16,041 bases of DNA from a virus (taxonomy: Duplodnaviria; Heunggongvirae; Uroviricota; Caudoviricetes): positions 1-16,041 of the IMG/VR virus record IMGVR_UViG_3300029877_000022. The stretch is one strand, 5' to 3'. The stretch's first letter is position 1. Each line of letters opens with the position of its first letter. The notes beneath the pieces were generated by a model. It worked only from the letters and a program-made list of their open reading frames with translations, did not search any database and was not told the origin of the DNA. Shown piece after piece: positions 4,361 to 16,041 of this stretch. Position numbers and translations under genes: made by a program.

Positions 4361-4450
4361 TTAACCCATAACGTGCAATGGCTGTCTTTATGAGGCCTGG
4401 CACCCTATTGCCTTCCGATGGGCTGAACATCGAGTAAACAGGGGTAACAA

Positions 4451-5344
4451 ATGGACCAGATGGCAGAAAACACACCAGAAGTTGAAATCGAAACCGACGC
4501 GTCAGAGCAGATTCCTGATGATGTCGAACTGGCTGAAGAAGTCGAAACAGAAGATGGCAGTGAGTCCTCCGGCAATGGTGCAGAGGAAGCTAGTGAAACT
4601 GATGACGACGAATCAGAACAGGAATTCTACTTTGGTGACGAAAAGCTGGATTCGCCAACCAGCGAAGATGGCGCAGAGCATGGACTGGTAAAACACCTGC
4701 GCAAGACGATTAAAGAGAAAGACCGCGAGCTGAAAGAGCTGATGCGTCAGTCTCAGAAACCCGTCGAGCAGCAGCCGGTAATCACTCTACCACCGCGGAT
4801 GCCAAAACTGGACGATGAGGACATCGGTTTCGATGAAGAAATCTACCAGCAACGCATGGCTAAGTGGGCAGAGGATAACGGCAAGTACCAGCAACAGGAG
4901 ATGGCTCGCAAGCAGAAGGAGCAGGAGCTTCAGGCTGCCTATCAAGAGCGATTATCCAAATATCAGCAACGTGTTAAGGCTCTCAAAGTTCCTGGCTATC
5001 AGGAAGCTGAGCAGGCCGTACTCGAGGAAATCCCCATCGAGACACAAAACGCGATCCTGTTTGAGTCAGAGAAGCCGGAAATCGTTGTTCTGGCGCTCGG
5101 TCGCAACGCTGAACTGCGCAAGCAACTGGCAGAAGCTACAAACCCCGTAGCAATTGGTCGTCTGCTGGAACGTATCGAATCGAAGGCCAGAATCATGCCA
5201 AAAGCAAAAACCACGGCAGCCACAACCCCGACAGTTAAGGGGAGCAACGGCGCAGTAATCAATAACCTCGACAAACTGAAAGCCAAGGCGCTGGAAACTG
5301 GTGACTGGACGCCGTATTTCGCCGCTAAAAAGGCAAAAAAATAA
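4451..5344 (+). CDS. Scaffolding protein (P22 gp8-like)
   Basis: 297-aa ORF between portal and coat. Very acidic N-terminus (D/E-rich), charged coiled-coil-like middle, basic C-terminus. Size near P22 gp8 (303 aa). RBS-like AGGGG 8 nt upstream of the ATG. Confidence 0.8.
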   Translation: MDQMAENTPEVEIETDASEQIPDDVELAEEVETEDGSESSGNGAEEASETDDDESEQEFYFGDEKLDSPTSEDGAEHGLVKHLRKTIKEKDRELKELMRQSQKPVEQQPVITLPPRMPKLDDEDIGFDEEIYQQRMAKWAEDNGKYQQQEMARKQKEQELQAAYQERLSKYQQRVKALKVPGYQEAEQAVLEEIPIETQNAILFESEKPEIVVLALGRNAELRKQLAEATNPVAIGRLLERIESKARIMPKAKTTAATTPTVKGSNGAVINNLDKLKAKALETGDWTPYFAAKKAKK

Positions 5345-5362
5345 CCTATCGGAGCATTAAGC

Positions 5363-6616
5363 ATGGCTAACCAATTAGCAAAAGACCTTGAAATCATGTT
5401 CGAAAACTACGTTGAAGGCTTTGAGGCCGCCTGCGTAGTTTCCCGTAACGCTAAAAAATTCCGTCCCGGTGATACAGCAATGCAGCGAGCAGGTGATGTT
5501 CTGTATCGTCCGCAGCATTACCACATGAACATTGAGGAAGGCCTCGACCTCAGCGGCAAAACGCCAACAGCACTGGTTCAGCGCCTTGTTCCTTCTGTGT
5601 TCAAGGAGCCGAAAAACATTCTGTACACTCTGGATGCGCGTGAAATGCGTGACCCGGAACATAAAACTGAAGCTGGTCGCGCCGCAGGTATGCGCCTTGC
5701 TGCACAGATTGACTCGGACCTGATTTCCATGGTCACGCAGCGTGCTACTAACGTGATCACAATGGCTGACTCAACCACTGGTTCACAGGGCCGTGATTTG
5801 TGGAACTGTGCGGCAGGTATTGATGCCACCATGACGGCGATTGGTGTACCACAGGGTATCAACCGCCGCTCTTTCTGGAACCCCTTCAACTACAAAGACC
5901 TTGCTGGCGAGCTTGGTCACCGTGCCTATGCTCAGGGCGCAACCCTGACAGCATACGAAAAAGCGCAGATCCCTCCGGTTGCTTCCTTTGATAGCTACAA
6001 GACCGATATTTCTGGTCGATTACCGAAAGGAAGCACTGAATCCTTGACAGTATCAGGCCAACCTGAACACAAGGTTGAAGCGAAAGATTCAAATGGTATG
6101 CCAGTTGATAACCGACAGGGGACTATTACGGTATCTGCATCTGGCTTGCAGGTTGGTGATGCGTTCACCATTGCCGGTGTGAATTCCGTACACCAGATCA
6201 CAAAAGATACCACCGGTCAACCGCAGGTATTCCGTGTTCTGGCTGTTAGCGGAAATACCGTAACAATTTCTCCAAAGATTCTCCCTGTTGAAAATACTGA
6301 TGTTGCGAGTCGTCCATATGCAAACGTCGATGCCAAACCGGCAGAATCAGCAGCAATCACCATTCTCAACAAGAACGCAGCACCTGCTAACCTGTTCTGG
6401 GCTGATGGTTCTGTTGAGCTTATGTACGGCAAACTGGCGTTCCCGACTGGTCAGGGTCCACAGGTAATGACAGCAACCACCGAGCAGGGCGCTACGCTGA
6501 TCATGTCTTACGCCTTCGACCACATCAAAGGCGTAACCACTGCTCGTTTCACCACTCTGTACGGTTGCTCTGTACTTGTTCCTGAATATACGGGCATCGT
6601 TATTGCCGGGCAGTAA
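5363..6616 (+). CDS. Major coat (capsid) protein (P22 gp5-like)
   Basis: 417-aa ORF after the scaffold gene with GGAG RBS. Size near P22 coat (430 aa). C-terminal region NLFWADGSVELMYGK resembles P22 coat NVFWADDAIRIVSQ from memory. Followed by a terminator hairpin. Confidence 0.85.
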   Translation: MANQLAKDLEIMFENYVEGFEAACVVSRNAKKFRPGDTAMQRAGDVLYRPQHYHMNIEEGLDLSGKTPTALVQRLVPSVFKEPKNILYTLDAREMRDPEHKTEAGRAAGMRLAAQIDSDLISMVTQRATNVITMADSTTGSQGRDLWNCAAGIDATMTAIGVPQGINRRSFWNPFNYKDLAGELGHRAYAQGATLTAYEKAQIPPVASFDSYKTDISGRLPKGSTESLTVSGQPEHKVEAKDSNGMPVDNRQGTITVSASGLQVGDAFTIAGVNSVHQITKDTTGQPQVFRVLAVSGNTVTISPKILPVENTDVASRPYANVDAKPAESAAITILNKNAAPANLFWADGSVELMYGKLAFPTGQGPQVMTATTEQGATLIMSYAFDHIKGVTTARFTTLYGCSVLVPEYTGIVIAGQ

Positions 6617-9874: not shown

Positions 9875-10567
9875 ATGTTATATGCATTTAAGCTGGGCAG
9901 AAAACTGCGCGGCGAGGAACCTTATTACCCTGAAAAAGGCGGGAAAGGTGGCAGTTCTGATAAAAGCGCAAAGTATGCAGCAGAAGCTCAGAAGTATGCC
10001 GCAGACCTGCAAAATCAGCAGTGGCAGACGATCATGAAAAACCTTGCTCCGTTCACGCCTCTTGCGGAGCAGTATGTTAACCAGCTTCAGAACATTTCCA
10101 GTTTAGAAGGTCAGGGGCAGGCACTTAATCAGTATTACAACTCTCAGCAGTATAAAGACCTTGCAGGTCAGGCTCGTTACCAGAGTCTTGCTGCTGCGGA
10201 GGCGACTGGCGGACTTGGTTCGACAGCTACAAGCAATCAACTGGCCACGATTGCCCCGACTCTCGGTCAGTCGTGGTTGTCGAACCAGATGAGCAACTAC
10301 AACAATCTGGCAAACATTGGCCTTGGTGCGCTGCAAGGTCAGGCGAACGCCGGGCAGACATACGCCAACAACATGAGCAGCATTGCGCAGCAAAGCGCAG
10401 CACTTGCCGCTGCTAACGCCAATAAACCATCAGGCCTTCAGACAGCAATTAGCGGTGGCACGTCTGGTGCGATTGCCGGTGCAGGTCTTGCCAGCCTTTT
10501 GGGAACATCAACGCCTTGGGGCGCTGGCATTGGTGCTGGTATCGGATTGCTTGGCTCGTTGTTTTAA
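9875..10567 (+). CDS. Ejection (internal virion) protein, P22 gp7-like
   Basis: 230-aa ORF (P22 gp7 is about 229 aa) with GGAG RBS. Q/N/A-rich low-complexity body and a Gly-rich hydrophobic C-terminus (GAIAGAGLASLLG...GAGIGAGIGLLGSLF) consistent with a membrane-inserting ejection protein. Syntenic position. Confidence 0.75.
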   Translation: MLYAFKLGRKLRGEEPYYPEKGGKGGSSDKSAKYAAEAQKYAADLQNQQWQTIMKNLAPFTPLAEQYVNQLQNISSLEGQGQALNQYYNSQQYKDLAGQARYQSLAAAEATGGLGSTATSNQLATIAPTLGQSWLSNQMSNYNNLANIGLGALQGQANAGQTYANNMSSIAQQSAALAAANANKPSGLQTAISGGTSGAIAGAGLASLLGTSTPWGAGIGAGIGLLGSLF

Positions 10568-10576
10568 GGGGTAATA

Positions 10577-11872
10577 ATGGCTACTTGGCAAGGATCAAAT
10601 GGCGGATTGTTGGCTGGTATCGGCGGCGTCAACTCAAACGCTCCGAGCGTAAATGACATCGGCAATACGCTTCAGCTTATCAGGCAGAACAATGATATTG
10701 AGCGTTCAGGCGCTAACAATGTTGGGCTGACTGCTTTGCAAGGCCTTTCAGGTATTGCAGGAGTGTTTCAGCAGGAAAAGCAGGCTCAGCGGCAGAAAGA
10801 ATTTCAGCAGGCGTACGCTAATGCTTATACGTCTGGTGATCGCGGTGCTTTGCGTCAGTTGGCTACTCAATATCCAGACCAGATTGAATCCGTTCGTAAA
10901 GGCATGGGATTCATTGATGAAGACCAGCGCAATTCCATCGGTACCTTAGCGGCTGGCGCACGCCTTGCGTCATCGTCTCCAGAAGCAATGCAATCATGGC
11001 TGCAAAACAACGCCAAGGAACTGACTCGCGTCGGTGTTGACCCTAATAACGTTGCTCAGATGTATCAGCAGAATCCTTCAGGATTTGGTGAGTTTGTTGA
11101 TCACCTTGGAATGGCTGCTCTTGGTCCGATTGATTACTTCAATGTTCAGGACAAGATGGCTGGTCGTGAGATTGACCGAGGCAGGCTGGCAGAGACAATC
11201 CGCAGCAATCAGGCAGGAGAAGCACTAACAGCTCGAGGTCAGGACATCCAGATACGTGGACAGAACATCAGCGCACAGAATGCTGCTCTTTCCCGAGAAA
11301 TACAAAGAGCAGAATTACAAGAAAAGGCTCTGGACAGACAGATAGCCAGAGAAAGCAATCAGTTAAAGCTTGAAGAGCTAAAACAGAAACAGGCAGATGT
11401 TCGGCAAAAGGCTGACATAGCCCGCGCTGACAGGCAGGCCGCCGCTCAGGGTGCAGTTGATACGTTCAGCACCGCGCTTGATTCTCTCAACGAGATAGAG
11501 CAAAGCCCCGGCCTTTCAAAAGCAGTAGGAATTCGCTCAGCGTTTCCGACAGTTCCTGGCTCTGATGCGGCTAACTTTGAAGCAAGGCTCGACACCTTTA
11601 AAGCTCAAACATTCCTTCCTATGGTGCAGTCCCTGAAGGGTATGGGCGCTCTTTCAGATGCAGAGGGTAAAAAATTATCCGATGCGGTTGGTGCCCTAAG
11701 CCCCAAAATGAGTGAAAAGGCTTTTCGTGACTCTATCGGAAAGATTAGAAATCAGCTTGAAAGCAAGTTGAGCACTGTTAAAAAACAGTTTGATTATCAG
11801 GAGCCGGTGCAGAATATGCCAGGGCAACAATCTACTACTGGCAGTAACTTTTCTTCGCTATGGGGTGATTAA
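10577..11872 (+). CDS. Ejection (internal virion) protein, P22 gp20-like
   Basis: 431-aa ORF in the syntenic position, with AAGGGG RBS. Contains a long charged coiled-coil segment (IRGQNISAQNAALSREIQRAELQEKALDRQIARESNQLKLEELKQKQADVRQKADIARADRQ). Confidence 0.7.
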   Translation: MATWQGSNGGLLAGIGGVNSNAPSVNDIGNTLQLIRQNNDIERSGANNVGLTALQGLSGIAGVFQQEKQAQRQKEFQQAYANAYTSGDRGALRQLATQYPDQIESVRKGMGFIDEDQRNSIGTLAAGARLASSSPEAMQSWLQNNAKELTRVGVDPNNVAQMYQQNPSGFGEFVDHLGMAALGPIDYFNVQDKMAGREIDRGRLAETIRSNQAGEALTARGQDIQIRGQNISAQNAALSREIQRAELQEKALDRQIARESNQLKLEELKQKQADVRQKADIARADRQAAAQGAVDTFSTALDSLNEIEQSPGLSKAVGIRSAFPTVPGSDAANFEARLDTFKAQTFLPMVQSLKGMGALSDAEGKKLSDAVGALSPKMSEKAFRDSIGKIRNQLESKLSTVKKQFDYQEPVQNMPGQQSTTGSNFSSLWGD

Positions 11873-13962: not shown

Positions 13963-14448
13963 TTATCTGATGTTACTGCTACTGTTGCATGTGACTGTAT
14001 TTCCAAACCCTGAATTGCAGTTTGTGTAAGTTTCAACTCGTGTTGGATAGGGTTGAGTTATAACAGGCTGTCTCGCTTTTTGCTCGATCGCTTGCATTGT
14101 GTTTACAGCCTGATAATTCAATAAAGCCTGCTGGAATGCTTGGCTTTGCGCTATTTGTTGGGCTTGTTCTTGGCTTTGTAGTTGAACATAAAGATTCTGA
14201 AGCTCAAGTCTTGCCTGCGCGTCACTTATCTTGCCATCATCGACACCTTGCCCGAGCATCTTCGCAGCAAGGACATATAACTTAGGTGTTGGTGCTGATG
14301 CCATGCGTGAGTCGTTCTTCACGCTAGCATCAAGGCAATTAGCCATATCGCTAAGCTTTGGATAGCGTTGTTCGCAATTTGCCTGATAGTCGCTAACCTT
14401 TGCGCACCCTGCCAGCAGAAGCGGGATAATTAACAGTGATTTTTTCAT
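13963..14448 (-). CDS. Predicted secreted lipoprotein, function unknown (accessory/moron gene)
   Basis: Minus-strand ORF. I place the start at the ATG at 14446..14448 (MKKSLLIIPLLLAGC) because AAGGAG lies 9 nt upstream and this gives a canonical lipoprotein signal peptide with lipobox LAGC. Mature part has cysteines near both ends and a Q-rich helical middle. No recognisable homologue from memory. Confidence 0.7.
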   Translation of the reverse strand: MKKSLLIIPLLLAGCAKVSDYQANCEQRYPKLSDMANCLDASVKNDSRMASAPTPKLYVLAAKMLGQGVDDGKISDAQARLELQNLYVQLQSQEQAQQIAQSQAFQQALLNYQAVNTMQAIEQKARQPVITQPYPTRVETYTNCNSGFGNTVTCNSSSNIR

Positions 14449-14582
14449 ATGATTAACTCTCCTTATCTTTGCCATCATGGCACTGTTGGGTGTAAATGAG
14501 TTATTAACTCAATCGACAATATCTTCACGAAAATACTTTTTATTATTAAGATCTTTCTGATTCTAACAAAACGGAAAGTAAT

Positions 14583-15002
14583 ATGAAGAGGATTATCGGC
14601 GTCGTTGCTGGCGCTATATTGTTATCTGGGTGCGCAACTATTGTTGGTGATGAAACGCAGCTTGTGCAAGTGAACAGCAATCCTTCTGGCGCGAGCTTTA
14701 AGGTAAAAGATGAATCTGGTGTGATTGTTGCGCAAGGTAAGACTCCACAAGGTGTAACACTCGCCAAGTCAGATGGTAGCTATTTTGGCAAAAAGAGCTA
14801 CCAGATCACTATGGAGAAGGATGGGTACGAACCAGTTACCCTGCCAATCAAAGCCAATGCTAATGGTTGGTATATTGGTGGGAACCTTGTGTTTGGTGGG
14901 TTAATTGGTTGGCTTGCTGTAGATCCATTTAATGGTGGGATGTATACCTTGAAGCCTAAAGAGGCAAATGCATCCCTTATACCGTCCACAAAGCAAGACT
15001 AA
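14583..15002 (+). CDS. Predicted lipoprotein with PEGA-like domain, function unknown (accessory/moron gene)
   Basis: 139-aa ORF with lipoprotein signal MKRIIGVVAGAILLSGC (lipobox LSGC). Middle region NPSGASFKVKD...GKTPQGVTL...YQITMEKDGYEP resembles the PEGA domain pattern. Gly/Trp-rich C-terminal segment GWYIGGNLVFGGLIGWLAVDPFNGGMYTL. Followed by a terminator. Confidence 0.7.
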   Translation: MKRIIGVVAGAILLSGCATIVGDETQLVQVNSNPSGASFKVKDESGVIVAQGKTPQGVTLAKSDGSYFGKKSYQITMEKDGYEPVTLPIKANANGWYIGGNLVFGGLIGWLAVDPFNGGMYTLKPKEANASLIPSTKQD

Positions 15003-15009
15003 TAAATGG

Positions 15010-15033
15010 AACCCACCATCAGGTGGGTTTTTT
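15010..15033 (+). terminator. Rho-independent terminator after the lipoprotein gene, overlapping the mnt stop codon
   Basis: AACCCACC-ATCA-GGTGGGTT hairpin (15010..15029) followed by a T-run to 15033. The poor U-tract on the opposite strand suggests it acts mainly on + strand transcripts. Confidence 0.7.
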
Positions 15034-15270
15034 GTACAAATCCTTCAGCGTATCAAACACCATCTTCTTAACAAGTTCAGACTGCTCATCAGCGATGCGT
15101 TCCGCATCGTCTCGATAGCCTGAAATTTTGGATGGCCTTGATACAGCATCAGTCACTATCTGAACTAATTCTGAATTAAGAGAGCGGCCATTGGATTTGG
15201 CTCGCTGTTTTAGTTTTTCCTTTAATTCGTAAGGTAGCCGCAGATTAAATTGCGGGTCATCTCTTCCCAT
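15019..15270 (-). CDS. mnt: Mnt repressor (ribbon-helix-helix, Arc/MetJ family)
   Basis: 83-aa minus-strand ORF MGRDDPQFNLRLPYELKEKLKQRAKSNGRSLNSELVQIVTDAVSRPSKISGYRDDAERIADEQSELVKKMVFDTLKDLYKKPT. Near-identical in length and sequence to P22 Mnt as I recall it, including the N-terminal beta-strand DNA-reading motif and C-terminal tetramerisation helix. Confidence 0.9.
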   Translation of the reverse strand: MGRDDPQFNLRLPYELKEKLKQRAKSNGRSLNSELVQIVTDAVSRPSKISGYRDDAERIADEQSELVKKMVFDTLKDLYKKPT

Positions 15271-15332
15271 TCTTGATGCCTCGCTCTTGTGAGTGGATCG
15301 GCATCTTATTATCTGCTGGTTGCATCCTCAAT

Positions 15333-15349
15333 AAGACCACGGTGGTCGT
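15333..15349. promoter_or_regulatory. Mnt operator-like 17-bp palindrome
   Basis: AAGACCACGGTGGTCGT has a symmetric core GACCAC-G-GTGGTC (15335..15347). It resembles the P22 Mnt operator as I recall it (AGGTCCACGGTGGACCT). Located in the 135-bp gap between the mnt start and the tailspike start. Confidence 0.6.
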
Positions 15350-15405
15350 ATTTTTTGATTAATAATGAATCACTGCGGCCATTCCTTGTATCTGGAGCAA
15401 ATTAA

Positions 15406-15945
15406 ATGACAGACATTACAGCCAATGTTGTAGTGAGTATGCCTTCGCAACTCTTCACTATGGCTCGTTCTTTTAAAGCCGTAGCCAATGGCAAAATTTA
15501 TATCGGTAAAATTGACACTGACCCGGTAAATCCTGAAAACCAGATTCAGGTCTATGTTGAGAACGAAGATGGTTCTCACGTTCCTGTTGCACAGCCAATC
15601 GTCATCAATGCCGCAGGGTATCCAGTATATAACGGACAGATTGCCAAATTCGTTACCGTGCAAGGCCATTCTATGGCTGTTTATGATGCGTATGGTGCAC
15701 AGCAGTTCTATTTTCCTAATGTGCTGAAGTATGACCCGGATCAGTTTAAACAAAAAGTATTATCAAATGATATGCTAAATATGTCTCCTCTTTATTTTGG
15801 AGCTAAGGGGGATGGGATTAGCGATGATACTGAAGCATTTGTCGCGTTGGAAATGGATATAAAAAATAGGGTTATTGATTTAAGTGGAAGAGCATTTTTT
15901 GTTACTAAAAGTTTTATTGGAAATAGCTATATAAATGGTTCTTAG
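15406..15945 (+). pseudogene. Tailspike gene truncated by IS2 insertion; retains the P22-type head-binding domain and the start of a pectate-lyase-like receptor-binding domain
   Basis: N-terminus [59 protein letters not shown]...[15 protein letters not shown]...[10 protein letters not shown] is the conserved tailspike head-binding domain. It is followed by an AT-rich segment encoding [16 protein letters not shown]. The frame ends at a TAG that is the first 3 nt of the IS2 end (15943), so the ORF is 179 codons instead of the 600 to 700 expected. Confidence 0.85.
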
Positions 15946-16041
15946 ACTGGCCCCCTGAATCTCCAGACAACCAGTATCACTTAAATAAGTGATAGTCTTA
16001 ATACTAGTTTTTAGACTAGTCATTGGAGAACAGATGATTGA
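15943..16041 (+). mobile_element. IS2 left end (IRL, orfA promoter region and orfA start codon); element continues beyond the window end
   Basis: TAGACTGGCCCCCTGAATCTCCAGACAACCAGTATCACTTAAATAAGTGATAGTCTTAATACTAGTTTTTAGACTAGTCATTGGAGAACAGATGATTGA matches the IS2 left end as I recall it, ending with ATGATTGA (MID..., the start of the first IS2 ORF). One possible mismatch to my recalled consensus (CCAGTATC here, CCAATATC recalled). Confidence 0.85.

What the first reader, a model, noticed from the sequence alone, without database searches (positions are those of the whole stretch)
14583..15033. Second moron: PEGA-like lipoprotein with a Gly/Trp-rich C-terminal segment and its own terminator
This gene diverges from the lipoprotein above and has a lipobox (LSGC), a middle region fitting the PEGA-domain pattern, and a C-terminal stretch GWYIGGNLVFGGLIGWLAVDPFNGGMYTL that looks like a membrane-interacting or oligomerising segment. 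The unit is self-contained with a 134-bp AT-rich upstream region and an intrinsic terminator, as expected for a moron expressed from the prophage. Its function is unknown; superinfection exclusion or envelope modification are candidates.
Basis: partly seen in the sequence, partly recalled or inferred. Interest (0 to 1): 0.65.

Follow-up and report, generated by a model that had tools for sequence, protein, structure and literature searches.

The report
Prophage accessory outer-membrane lipoprotein gene
This is a real, strongly conserved accessory gene of a P22-like E. coli prophage that is switched on while the phage is dormant and encodes a small lipoprotein, predicted to sit in the outer membrane, from a large uncharacterised bacterial family; what it does (possibly blocking other phages or remodelling the envelope) has never been tested.

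Summary
Bases 14583-15002 (+) encode a 139-aa protein with a signal peptide and lipobox (LSGC, Cys17). A hairpin plus T-run terminator follows at about 15008-15035, and a 134-bp, 30.6% GC divergent intergenic region lies upstream.

The window is the late region of a P22-like (Lederbergvirus) prophage. The gene lies between the gp16-type ejection gene and mnt, in the variable "ant moron" where P22 carries sieA. It equals epsilon34 gp15 (97.8%) and phage Gally GALLYPH_14 (100%), both annotated hypothetical, and PHROG 6823.

Published LF82 RNA-seq for the identical allele, with an identical upstream region, shows transcription about 60-130 times that of the adjacent structural gene in DMEM and in macrophages. 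It is only about 3-fold above background in stationary LB, which is why that paper called Gally moron-free.

Alleles differ almost only synonymously (dN/dS 0-0.04).

The fold is a divergent PEGA/transthyretin-like beta-sandwich. A nearly invariant Gly/Trp helical hairpin (residues 95-112) is inserted in it and is predicted to dip into a membrane leaflet. Ala at +2 predicts outer-membrane sorting.

The family is large and mostly chromosomal in Proteobacteria, but phages captured it repeatedly next to DNA-delivery genes. Function is untested; superinfection exclusion is the leading inference. It is a new member of a known kind.

The parts
14449..14582 (.). 134-bp AT-rich (30.6% GC) divergent intergenic region between the two lipoprotein genes. 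It must hold the promoters of both.
   Evidence: The region is 100% identical in phage Gally / E. coli LF82, where both flanking genes are transcribed in the lysogen.
14524..14552 (+). Candidate sigma-70 promoter: TTCACG (14524-14529), 17-nt spacer, TAAGAT (14547-14552). This is an inference; it matches 8 of 12 positions, below the scanner's threshold of 9.
   Evidence: Read from the sequence. The same arrangement is kept in epsilon34 as TTCACA-17-TAGGAT, although the sequence further upstream is unrelated. The scan found no + strand site at its threshold.
14573..14578 (+). Shine-Dalgarno-like GGAAAG, 4 nt before the ATG.
   Evidence: GGAAA is conserved in epsilon34.
14583..15002 (+). Coding sequence of the 139-aa prolipoprotein, with a double stop TAATAA.
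   Evidence: PHROG 6823 matches full length at E = 6e-86. 100% identical to Gally GALLYPH_14 and 97.8% to epsilon34 gp15.
14583..14633 (+). Signal peptide and lipobox (residues 1-17; Cys17 is codon 14631-14633). Ala18 at +2 predicts sorting to the outer membrane.
   Evidence: C17 is invariant. The +2 residue is Ala in 141 of 149 aligned relatives and never Asp.
14652..14861 (+). Main part of the divergent PEGA / transthyretin-like beta-sandwich (residues 24-93).
14862..14942 (+). Nearly invariant Gly/Trp-rich hydrophobic insertion (residues 94-120). It is predicted as two short helices (95-104 and 106-112) followed by VDPxNGGMY, and is a candidate re-entrant membrane hairpin.
   Evidence: Most conserved block of the family: 0.74 against 0.46 for the sandwich. 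Helices predicted with pLDDT 70-82. Interfacial free energy -7.35 kcal/mol against a median of +4.3.
14943..14975 (+). Two closing beta-strands (residues 121-131) that return to the sandwich.
   Evidence: pLDDT about 97 for residues 121-130; also predicted.
15008..15035 (.). Intrinsic terminator hairpin plus T-run, placed between the convergent target gene and mnt.
   Evidence: Annotated as a terminator in epsilon34.
13963..14448 (-). Divergent neighbour: an unrelated 161-aa lipoprotein (PHROG 6067). It is context, not part of the unit.
   Evidence: It is present next to the target in only about 16 of the 74 P22-like loci examined.
15019..15270 (-). Convergent neighbour: the Mnt repressor gene (context).
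   Evidence: Pfam Arc (1e-21) and Repressor_Mnt (2e-18).

Best explanation
The unit is a moron: a self-contained accessory transcription unit inserted in the late operon of a P22-like prophage, between the gp16-type ejection-protein gene and mnt.

Shown:
- It has its own terminator.
- In LF82, which carries an identical protein and an identical upstream region, it is transcribed from the repressed prophage. Levels approach those of the C2 repressor during growth in DMEM and inside macrophages.
- The protein is under strong purifying selection.

Inferred from sequence:
- The prolipoprotein is exported by Sec, acylated at Cys17 and cleaved by signal peptidase II.

Inferred from the structure model:
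- The mature ~122-residue protein has no flexible tether. A divergent PEGA beta-sandwich starts about 7 residues after the lipid anchor.
- It carries a conserved, uniformly hydrophobic Gly/Trp helical hairpin (residues 95-112). This is too short to span a bilayer twice, and its ends are held by the sandwich, so it most likely dips into the same leaflet as the anchor.
- The whole domain would therefore be clamped flat against the periplasmic face of the outer membrane.

Inferred from context only:
- From there it probably changes an outer-membrane property or engages an outer-membrane protein.
- For the phage, the likeliest pay-off is a barrier to incoming phages, either at the outer-membrane receptor or at the channel-forming step.
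- Because it lies on the late-operon strand, it should also be made late in lytic growth.
For: Genomic setting.
- P22-like late gene order, with a tailspike head-binding domain downstream.
- Same slot as in epsilon34 and Gally.
- The epsilon34 genome paper defines this slot as the fast-changing 'ant moron' that holds sieA in P22 (PMC2629481).

Modularity.
- Among 80 IMG/VR loci, 74 have the gene in the P22-like slot with varying partners, 4 lie between tail gene T and the tape measure, and 2 lie between I and J.
- Each phage copy has its own downstream terminator.

Expression (PMC9928086 S1 Table). LF82_139 / GALLYPH_14, at the same coordinates as RefSeq LF82_RS05025, has these log2(fpkm+5) values:
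- 9.8-10.5 in DMEM
- 11.0 and 9.4-9.5 in macrophages
- 3.6-4.1 for the adjacent injection gene
- 10.5-12.0 for C2 in the DMEM and macrophage samples (8.9-9.9 in stationary LB)
The upstream 134 bp is identical to the window.

Selection. dN/dS 0-0.04.

Lipoprotein and sorting signals..

Fold..

Hairpin. Conservation, predicted helices, interfacial energy.

Links to the outer membrane.
- In three Pasteurellaceae genomes the gene lies 10-17 bp downstream of a small OmpA-like beta-barrel gene on the same strand.
- One family cluster (P0140) is a fusion to an OmpA-like transmembrane barrel (PF01389, 2e-15).

Precedent.
- Unrelated small lipoproteins encoded inside structural gene clusters of mEpimmI coliphages exclude OmpA- or LamB-dependent phages experimentally (PMC11893012).
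- The T|tape-measure slot is where HK97 gp15, a known exclusion protein, lies. That placement is my own knowledge of Cumby et al. 2012, a paper cited.
Against: - No experiment on any member of the family was found.
- No match to 5,027 defence-system models.
- No homology to Cor beyond the signal peptide.
- The same protein (68-100% identical) rides in podophages and siphophages with unrelated receptor-binding proteins. That argues against a receptor-specific self-exclusion role of the Cor/Llp type.
- Most family members are chromosomal genes of free-living Proteobacteria. This points to a native envelope function unrelated to phages.
- Misson et al. classed Gally as having no moron, because expression in stationary LB was only about 3.3 times background.
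- The promoter is only an 8/12 match.
- Localisation, acylation and membrane insertion are predictions.
- The hairpin has the lowest confidence in the models: pLDDT below 50 with the shallow alignment and 70-82 with the deep one.
Confidence: 0.55

Rival explanations
1. Host-benefit envelope factor rather than anti-phage function. The phage carries a borrowed host lipoprotein that strengthens or remodels the outer membrane under host-associated stress (macrophage vacuole, serum, bile, cationic peptides). This would raise lysogen fitness in the way Bor, Lom/Ail or phage-borne porins are thought to.
For: - The family is predominantly chromosomal, with conserved species-level synteny: Erwinia/Pantoea between mmuPM and speG, Photorhabdus between rimJ and murJ, and Enterobacter.
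- Expression of the identical allele rises about 30-60-fold from stationary LB to DMEM and macrophages. The neighbouring lipoprotein and mnt rise too.
- It is carried by phages with unrelated receptor-binding proteins.
- The E. coli lambdoid prophages that carry the 68% homologue also carry a porin moron nearby.
Against: - Misson et al. report no adverse effect of the Gally prophage on LF82 survival in macrophages (PMC9928086). No benefit from it or from this gene has been shown either.
- A CRISPRi gut-colonisation screen of LF82 highlights other Gally genes and does not mention this one.
- The recurrent placement directly beside ejection, tape-measure and tail-tip genes is what is seen for known exclusion genes. 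These are also generic moron slots, so this point is weak.
Confidence: 0.3
2. Bitopic or inner-membrane protein. Residues 95-112 form a true transmembrane helix, or the protein stays in the inner membrane, so that it acts at the cytoplasmic membrane like SieA or HK97 gp15.
For: - The hydrophobic stretch is 18 residues with a low hydrophobic moment.
- It sits in the slots used by the inner-membrane exclusion proteins SieA and HK97 gp15.
Against: - Ala, never Asp, at +2 in 141 of 149 relatives.
- Kyte-Doolittle 19-residue mean only 1.3.
- Six glycines and a predicted break at G105.
- The strands after the segment (121-131) pack back into the sandwich with pLDDT about 97, which is topologically incompatible with a single membrane pass.
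- Fusion and operon links are to outer-membrane barrels.
Confidence: 0.07
3. Lytic-cycle function: a lysis or virion-associated lipoprotein (spanin-like or assembly factor) rather than a lysogen-expressed gene.
For: - Same strand as the late operon, so late read-through transcription is expected.
- It lies among virion genes.
Against: [quoted passage not shown]
- High expression while structural genes are silent.
- Own terminator.
- No similarity to spanin or virion PHROGs.
Confidence: 0.03

Closest known systems
Salmonella phage epsilon34 gp15 / Escherichia phage Gally GALLYPH_14 / PHROG 6823
   Same: This is the same gene: 97.8-100% protein identity, the same slot between the gp16 homologue and mnt, and the same terminator.
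   Different: Nothing differs except the neighbours: hkcB-like in epsilon34, and the PHROG 6067 lipoprotein here and in Gally. All are annotated 'hypothetical', and no function has been published.
P22 SieA and HK97 gp15 (prophage-expressed superinfection-exclusion morons)
   Same: - Same genomic slots: gene 16|mnt for SieA, and T|tape measure for the 68% homologue P0061.
- Independently transcribed accessory genes.
- They lie next to the proteins that build the DNA-delivery conduit.
   Different: - SieA and gp15 are inner-membrane proteins with no lipobox.
- There is no sequence or fold relation.
- The target is predicted to be an outer-membrane lipoprotein.
- Exclusion by the target is untested.
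Cor (phi80/N15/HK022), T5 Llp, and mEpimmI Lpp021/Lpp010 (exclusion lipoproteins)
   Same: - Small phage-encoded lipoproteins predicted to sit on the periplasmic face of the outer membrane.
- They are encoded within or beside tail genes.
- They block OM-receptor-dependent entry (PMC11893012; preprint on FhuA:Llp listed).
   Different: - Similarity to Cor is confined to the signal peptide (NCBIfam E = 0.19, residues 1-30; PHROG 1119 residues 1-20).
- The target is about twice as large, has a PEGA sandwich plus a hydrophobic hairpin, and has thousands of chromosomal relatives.
- Its carriers use unrelated receptors.
PEGA domain (Pfam PF08308) / transthyretin-like fold class
   Same: - It shows the S-x-P-x-G-A ... 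G-x-T-P ... K-x-G-Y pattern.
- It has a 7-8-strand sandwich.
- 25 of 83 relatives pass at E <= 0.01.
   Different: - The window protein scores below the gathering threshold.
- It carries a KSDGSYFGKK insertion.
- It also carries the 27-residue hydrophobic insertion, which no Pfam model covers.
SlyB/PCP-type glycine-zipper outer-membrane lipoproteins
   Same: Architectural analogy only: a lipid anchor, a Gly-rich membrane-embedded helical hairpin and a small beta-sandwich. SlyB is known to surround outer-membrane proteins (my own knowledge: Janssens et al. 2024).
   Different: - No hit to any glycine-zipper Pfam family at E <= 1.
- The order of elements differs: here the hairpin is inside the sandwich, not before it.
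- The hairpin arms (10 and 7 residues) are too short to span the bilayer.

Membership tests
Bacterial lipoprotein (Lgt/LspA substrate) | N-terminal signal peptide ending in a lipobox [LVI][ASTVI][GAS]C | tested here: met
   MKR-IIGVVAGAILL-LSGC17. Cys is invariant in 38 close and 83 distant relatives.
Bacterial lipoprotein (Lgt/LspA substrate) | Covalent acylation and globomycin-sensitive cleavage | not testable with these tools
   Needs labelling or mass spectrometry.
Outer-membrane-sorted lipoprotein (Lol pathway) | No inner-membrane retention signal (Asp) at position +2 | tested here: met
   Ala18. The +2 residue is Ala in 141, Ser in 4, Gly in 2, Thr in 1 and Arg in 1 of 149 relatives.
Outer-membrane-sorted lipoprotein (Lol pathway) | Physical location in the outer membrane | not testable with these tools
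   Only indirect support: a fusion to an OmpA-like barrel (P0140) and an operon with an OMP_b-brl gene in Pasteurellaceae.
PEGA domain (PF08308) | Score at or above the Pfam gathering threshold | tested here: not met
   17.6 bits against 20.8, E = 0.0037, residues 28-93.
PEGA domain (PF08308) | Homology to PEGA shown through relatives | tested here: met
   25 of 83 relatives at 38-54% identity hit PF08308 at E <= 0.01, best 5e-9. 9 of 38 close relatives hit at E <= 0.1.
PEGA domain (PF08308) | Transthyretin-like beta-sandwich fold | tested here: met
Moron (phage accessory transcription unit) | Present in some and absent from other closely related phages at the same position | tested here: met
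   Only 4 of 50,697 phage records carry it, while mnt and gp16 are widespread. Its partners vary among 74 P22-like loci. PMC2629481 describes this.
Moron (phage accessory transcription unit) | Own terminator | tested here: met
   Independent copies in siphophages also end in their own hairpin plus T-run.
Moron (phage accessory transcription unit) | Own promoter | tested here: inconclusive
   The only candidate is an 8/12 match, TTCACG-17-TAAGAT. No transcription start site data. Expression data imply that a promoter exists.
Moron (phage accessory transcription unit) | Transcribed from the repressed prophage, independently of lytic genes | tested here: met
   Published RNA-seq for the identical allele: 60-130 times the adjacent injection gene in DMEM and macrophages, and about 3.3 times background in stationary LB. 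This was measured in LF82, not in the window's own strain.
Moron (phage accessory transcription unit) | Base composition differs from the flanking operon | tested here: met
   45.2% GC for the gene and 30.6% upstream, against 50.3% for the late genes. The difference is modest.
Cor / Llp exclusion lipoproteins | Profile match over the mature protein | tested here: not met
   NCBIfam Cor E = 0.19 over residues 1-30 only. PHROG 1119 E = 0.0034 over residues 1-20 only.
Known anti-phage defence systems (PADLOC-DB 2.0) | Match to any defence-protein model | tested here: not met
   0 families at E <= 1.
YceK/DUF1375 lipoproteins (the name JGI gives two homologues) | Profile similarity beyond the lipobox | tested here: not met
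   hhalign aligned only 15 columns around LSGC (probability 41%). The YceK sequence I supplied from memory was confirmed as DUF1375.
Glycine-zipper lipoproteins (SlyB/PCP; PF05433, PF13488, PF13441) | Pfam match to a glycine-zipper model | tested here: not met
   PEGA was the only Pfam family at E <= 1.

The most novel reading that the evidence does not exclude
The family defines a previously undescribed class of monotopic outer-membrane lipoproteins. A PEGA sandwich would be clamped to the periplasmic leaflet by both its lipid anchor and an invariant Gly/Trp re-entrant hairpin, and would engage small OmpA-like beta-barrels; this is hinted at by one gene fusion and a Pasteurellaceae operon. 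Phage-borne copies would then give broad superinfection exclusion across both podophages and siphophages. They would do so by masking outer-membrane-protein secondary receptors or by preventing ejection or tape-measure proteins from breaching the outer membrane. In addition, the gene would be environmentally induced in host-like conditions, so the published statement that the Gally prophage of the Crohn's-associated strain LF82 carries no moron would need revising.
Probability: 0.15. Interest if true: 0.7.

Novelty: new member of a known kind. Interest (0 to 1): 0.42.

Why it matters
Prophage accessory genes that act on the cell surface decide which phages can infect a strain, and they can change how pathogens cope with the host.

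- This gene is present in about 2.3% of complete E. coli genomes.
- It is one of the most highly transcribed genes of the Gally prophage of the adherent-invasive strain LF82 in DMEM and inside macrophages, yet it has been overlooked.
- It belongs to a family of thousands of uncharacterised proteobacterial lipoproteins whose most conserved element has no Pfam model.
- A cheap plating and fractionation experiment would assign a first function to that whole family. It would also test whether one lipoprotein can protect against phages of different tail types.

If it turns out to be a plain envelope protein, the case is still a clean example of phages repeatedly capturing a host envelope gene.

Tried and rejected
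1. YceK/DUF1375 relationship, suggested by JGI names. hhalign aligned only the lipobox region. Rejected.
2. Cor-like exclusion lipoprotein. Hits were confined to the signal peptide. Rejected as homology.
3. Known defence systems. No PADLOC hit.
6. Automatic promoter scan. No + strand site at threshold in the intergenic region. I propose a weaker candidate by eye.
7. Literature.
   - Nothing on the accession numbers or locus tags.
   - The 'PEGA domain' literature is uninformative.
   - The OCTIN paper concerns FGE-domain proteins and is irrelevant.
   - One search was badly designed and wasted.
   - The LF82 CRISPRi preprint does not mention the gene.
8. Conserved operon partners in chromosomal loci.
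   - None is general; the gene is usually monocistronic.
   - An EAL-domain gene lies about 300 bp upstream in both Lonsdalea and Halomonadaceae. Such genes are numerous, so I treat this as possibly chance.
9. Plasmids. Homologues are rare, and several of the hits are in chromosome-sized records.
10. E. coli GMF054 matches this 1.5-kb stretch 100%, but it is not the source of the window. Its tailspike is intact and it has an IS911 elsewhere.
Full report
**What is in the window**

The window is the late region of a P22-like (Lederbergvirus) prophage of E. coli. A run of + strand ORFs ends in three ejection-protein genes. After them come:
- a minus-strand lipoprotein gene, 13963-14448
- the target ORF, 14583-15002 (+)
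- a minus-strand mnt repressor gene, 15019-15270 (Pfam Arc 1e-21, Repressor_Mnt 2e-18)
- the N-terminal head-binding domain of a tailspike, 15406-15945 (PF09008, 6e-68)

The 1.5-kb stretch is 96-97% identical to Escherichia phages vB_EcoP-720R6 and Gally. The part carrying the target is 94.9% identical to Salmonella phage epsilon34.

At protein level the target is 100% identical to Gally GALLYPH_14, 99.3% to the 720R6 copy and 97.8% to epsilon34 gp15. All are annotated hypothetical. It matches PHROG 6823 ("unknown function") over its full length at E = 6e-86.

**Check of the observation**

- The protein begins MKRIIGVVAGAILLSGC, with a single lipobox match at residues 14-17.
- The Gly/Trp stretch is residues 95-123.
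- The upstream intergenic region is 134 bp and 30.6% GC. The gene is 45.2% GC and the late genes 50.3%.
- Downstream, GAACCCACC-AUCA-GGUGGGUU followed by a U-run folds at -15.4 kcal/mol. epsilon34 carries an annotated Rho-independent terminator at the same place.

The ORF is a real gene. I compared 50 distinct alleles from 76 P22-like loci with the window. The differences summed to 894.5 synonymous against 77.5 non-synonymous, and pairwise dN/dS was 0-0.04. One allele has 26 synonymous and no non-synonymous changes.

**Is it a moron, and is it expressed?**

The epsilon34 genome paper describes the region between gene 16 and the tailspike gene as the "ant moron". It is a fast-changing insertion that in P22 holds sieA, hkcC, mnt, arc and ant. 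[quoted passage not shown]

I confirmed the modularity. In 80 IMG/VR loci:
- 74 have the gene in the P22-like slot, but with varying partners. The PHROG 6067 lipoprotein is present in about 16 and an hkcB-like gene in about 12.
- 4 lie between tail gene T and the tape-measure gene.
- 2 lie between tail genes I and J.

Exact-sequence look-ups showed the same pattern:
- a 68% homologue between T and the tape measure in E. coli lambdoid prophages such as that of ED1a
- a 71% homologue just before the tape measure in Proteus prophages
- a 78% homologue between I and J in Pseudescherichia

Each of these copies ends in its own hairpin plus T-run.

The strongest evidence for expression is published RNA-seq of E. 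coli LF82, the natural Gally lysogen. The 134-bp upstream region in LF82 is base-for-base identical to the window. The gene's coordinates, 1033474-1033893, tie LF82_139 to the RefSeq gene.

Values from S1 Table of PMC9928086, as log2(fpkm+5):

| Gene | Stationary LB | DMEM 1 h | DMEM 6 h | Macrophage 1 h | Macrophage 6 h |
|---|---|---|---|---|---|
| LF82_139 (target) | 6.22 / 4.79 | 9.82 / 10.19 | 10.49 / 10.24 | 11.03 / 11.00 | 9.39 / 9.50 |

In the same table the adjacent injection-protein gene stays at 3.6-4.1 in every condition. The C2 repressor is at 8.9-9.9 in stationary LB and 10.5-12.0 in the DMEM and macrophage samples.

So the gene is transcribed autonomously from the repressed prophage, at 60-130 times the level of its structural neighbour. 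The authors concluded that Gally is "devoid of any moron" because they applied a 5-fold cut-off to the stationary-LB samples only. There the gene reached 51 against a cut-off of 78.

I could not map the promoter. The scanner found no + strand site at its threshold. The best candidate is TTCACG(14524)-17-TAAGAT(14552). epsilon34 keeps it as TTCACA-17-TAGGAT even though the sequence further upstream is unrelated.

**The protein**

- **PEGA.** Pfam gives only PEGA, below threshold (17.6 against 20.8 bits). Among 83 relatives at 38-54% identity, 25 hit PEGA at E <= 0.01, best 5e-9. The sandwich is therefore a divergent PEGA domain.
- **Model.** AlphaFold with a 38-sequence alignment gave a confident sandwich (residues 24-93 and 121-131) but pLDDT below 50 for residues 96-115. 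With 83 more diverse sequences the mean pLDDT rose to 88.9. The Gly/Trp segment then resolved into two short helices, 95-104 and 106-112, at pLDDT 70-82.
- **Conservation.** The Gly/Trp block is the most conserved part of the family: mean consensus frequency 0.74 against 0.46 for the sandwich. The consensus is GWY..GN..FGGLIGWLIVDP.TGAMW.L.P. Residues C17, P55, G109, D114, P115 and G118 are invariant.
- **Membrane propensity.** The block has the most favourable Wimley-White interfacial free energy of the mature protein (-7.35 kcal/mol against a median of +4.3), with almost no hydrophobic moment. Its Kyte-Doolittle 19-residue mean is only 1.3.
- **Topology.** The helices are 10 and 7 residues long, and both ends are held by the sandwich. 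A re-entrant, single-leaflet insertion is therefore the reading that fits, not a transmembrane pass.
- **Tether.** The sandwich starts about 7 residues after the acylated Cys, and those residues (ATIVGD) are themselves conserved. There is no flexible tether.
- **Sorting.** The +2 residue is Ala in 141 of 149 relatives and never Asp. By the Lol sorting rule (established knowledge) this predicts the outer membrane.
- **Independent hints for the outer membrane.** In three Pasteurellaceae genomes the gene lies 10-17 bp downstream of an OmpA-like eight-strand barrel gene (PF13505, 2e-16). One family cluster (P0140) is a fusion to an OmpA-like transmembrane barrel (PF01389, 2e-15).

**The family**

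- The exhaustive search found 3,682 clusters at 50% identity with E <= 1e-3, and 1,332 at E <= 1e-10.
- The module often forms the N-terminus of longer lipoproteins with variable tails.
- In one genome per species, relatives occur across Enterobacterales, Pasteurellaceae, Halomonadaceae, Shewanella, Nitrosomonas, Gallionellaceae, Mariprofundus and Syntrophaceae.
- 74 of 80 such loci have no lambdoid or P22 hallmark gene within 5 kb. This screen cannot detect unrelated phages.
- Several clades show stable chromosomal synteny: Erwinia/Pantoea between mmuPM and speG, Photorhabdus between rimJ and murJ, and Enterobacter.
- In E. coli, 126 of 5,426 complete genomes (2.3%) carry the gene, always on the chromosome. 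Every locus I inspected was a prophage.
- Only 4 of 50,697 sequenced phage records carry it.

The picture is a host envelope lipoprotein repeatedly captured by temperate phages of Enterobacterales.

**Mechanism**

Shown:
- an independent, terminated, prophage-expressed unit
- strong purifying selection
- a lipoprotein signal

Inferred:
- outer-membrane inner-leaflet location
- a sandwich clamped to the membrane by the anchor plus a re-entrant hairpin

Inferred from context only: what it does.

I favour a barrier to incoming phages, for three reasons.
- In four different phage architectures the gene sits directly beside the genes whose products breach the envelope (gp16, tape measure, tail tip).
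- Two of these slots house proven exclusion genes (SieA; HK97 gp15, from my knowledge of Cumby et al. 2012, cited).
- Unrelated small lipoproteins in structural clusters of mEpimmI phages exclude OmpA- or LamB-dependent phages experimentally (PMC11893012).

Three observations count against this.
- Carriage by phages with unrelated receptor-binding proteins.
- The mainly chromosomal family.
- The absence of any match to defence models.

Together with the 30-60-fold induction in DMEM and macrophages, these keep a host-fitness envelope role as a serious rival. I put about 0.35-0.4 on exclusion, 0.3 on host fitness, and less than 0.1 each on inner-membrane action and a lytic-cycle role.

**Comparison and verdict**

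This is the already-sequenced but never-studied gene epsilon34 gp15 / Gally gp14.
- It resembles Cor, Llp or Lpp lipoproteins in being a phage-encoded, tail-adjacent lipoprotein with a predicted outer-membrane location, but it is not homologous to Cor.
- It resembles SieA and HK97 gp15 in genomic position, but not in protein type.
- It is a divergent PEGA-domain protein carrying an insertion that no Pfam model covers.

I class it as a new member of a known kind (a prophage moron lipoprotein), of moderate interest. The useful new points are:
- the re-reading of the LF82 data, which shows strong conditional expression
- the recurrent capture at DNA-delivery slots
- the definition of the conserved hairpin as the likely functional core of a very large uncharacterised family

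Noticed in passing
window 15946-16041: The tailspike ORF is cut after about 179 codons by the end of an IS2 element. The segment is 99% identical to IS2 ends annotated as 'IS3-like element IS2 family transposase', and the IS supplies the stop codon. The prophage in this window therefore probably cannot make a functional tailspike and is defective, yet the two lipoprotein genes and mnt are intact.
   Followed up: partly
window 13963-14448 (-): The divergent neighbour is an unrelated 161-aa lipoprotein (lipobox LAGC, PHROG 6067, no Pfam family) with a Gln-rich middle region. In LF82 its identical-context copy GALLYPH_13 rises from log2 about 6 in LB to 10.3 in macrophages. It is also an unrecognised prophage-expressed gene. 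It occurs without the target in Salmonella phage VSe13.
   Followed up: partly
window 15271-15405: There is no arc or ant gene between mnt and the tailspike gene. The palindrome ACCACGGTGGT (15336-15346), which the scanner flagged as terminator-like, resembles the P22 Mnt operator as I recall it. If so, the Mnt-controlled Pant-type promoter now faces the tailspike gene directly. In LF82, mnt rises 40-fold and the tailspike gene about 16-fold in macrophages.
   Followed up: no
PMC9928086 S1 Table (LF82 1032854-1033893), equivalent to window 13963-15002: [quoted passage not shown] The paper's own table shows GALLYPH_13 and GALLYPH_14 as the most highly expressed Gally genes after C2 in DMEM and in macrophages at 1 h.
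   Followed up: yes
L130, L132, L155 (Lonepinella spp., Pasteurellaceae bacterium Pebbles2), about 4400-5400; protein P0140: The chromosomal homologue lies 10-17 bp downstream of a 196-aa OmpA-like outer-membrane beta-barrel gene on the same strand. One family representative (P0140) is a fusion of the lipoprotein module to an OmpA-like barrel. This may be a functional link to small outer-membrane barrels.
   Followed up: partly
L118, L121, L122, L124, L126 (Lonsdalea) and L144, L154, L161, L168 (Chromohalobacter/Halomonas), about 260-360 bp upstream of the homologue: An EAL-domain (c-di-GMP phosphodiesterase-type) gene lies directly upstream on the same strand in two distant clades. It may be chance, because such genes are numerous.
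   Followed up: no
L003, L005, L006, L007 (E. coli lambdoid prophages), 10261-11424: The prophages that carry the 68% homologue between T and the tape measure also carry a porin gene (Porin_1/Porin_4) inserted between tail genes M and L. That makes two envelope morons in one tail operon.
   Followed up: no
L181 (E. coli GMF054) 1-700: In the genome that matches this 1.5-kb stretch 100%, an IS911 truncates the gene annotated 'P22-gp17 family phage DNA ejection protein', while the tailspike is intact. So independent IS hits disable related prophages at different virion genes, while the lipoprotein genes are kept.
   Followed up: no
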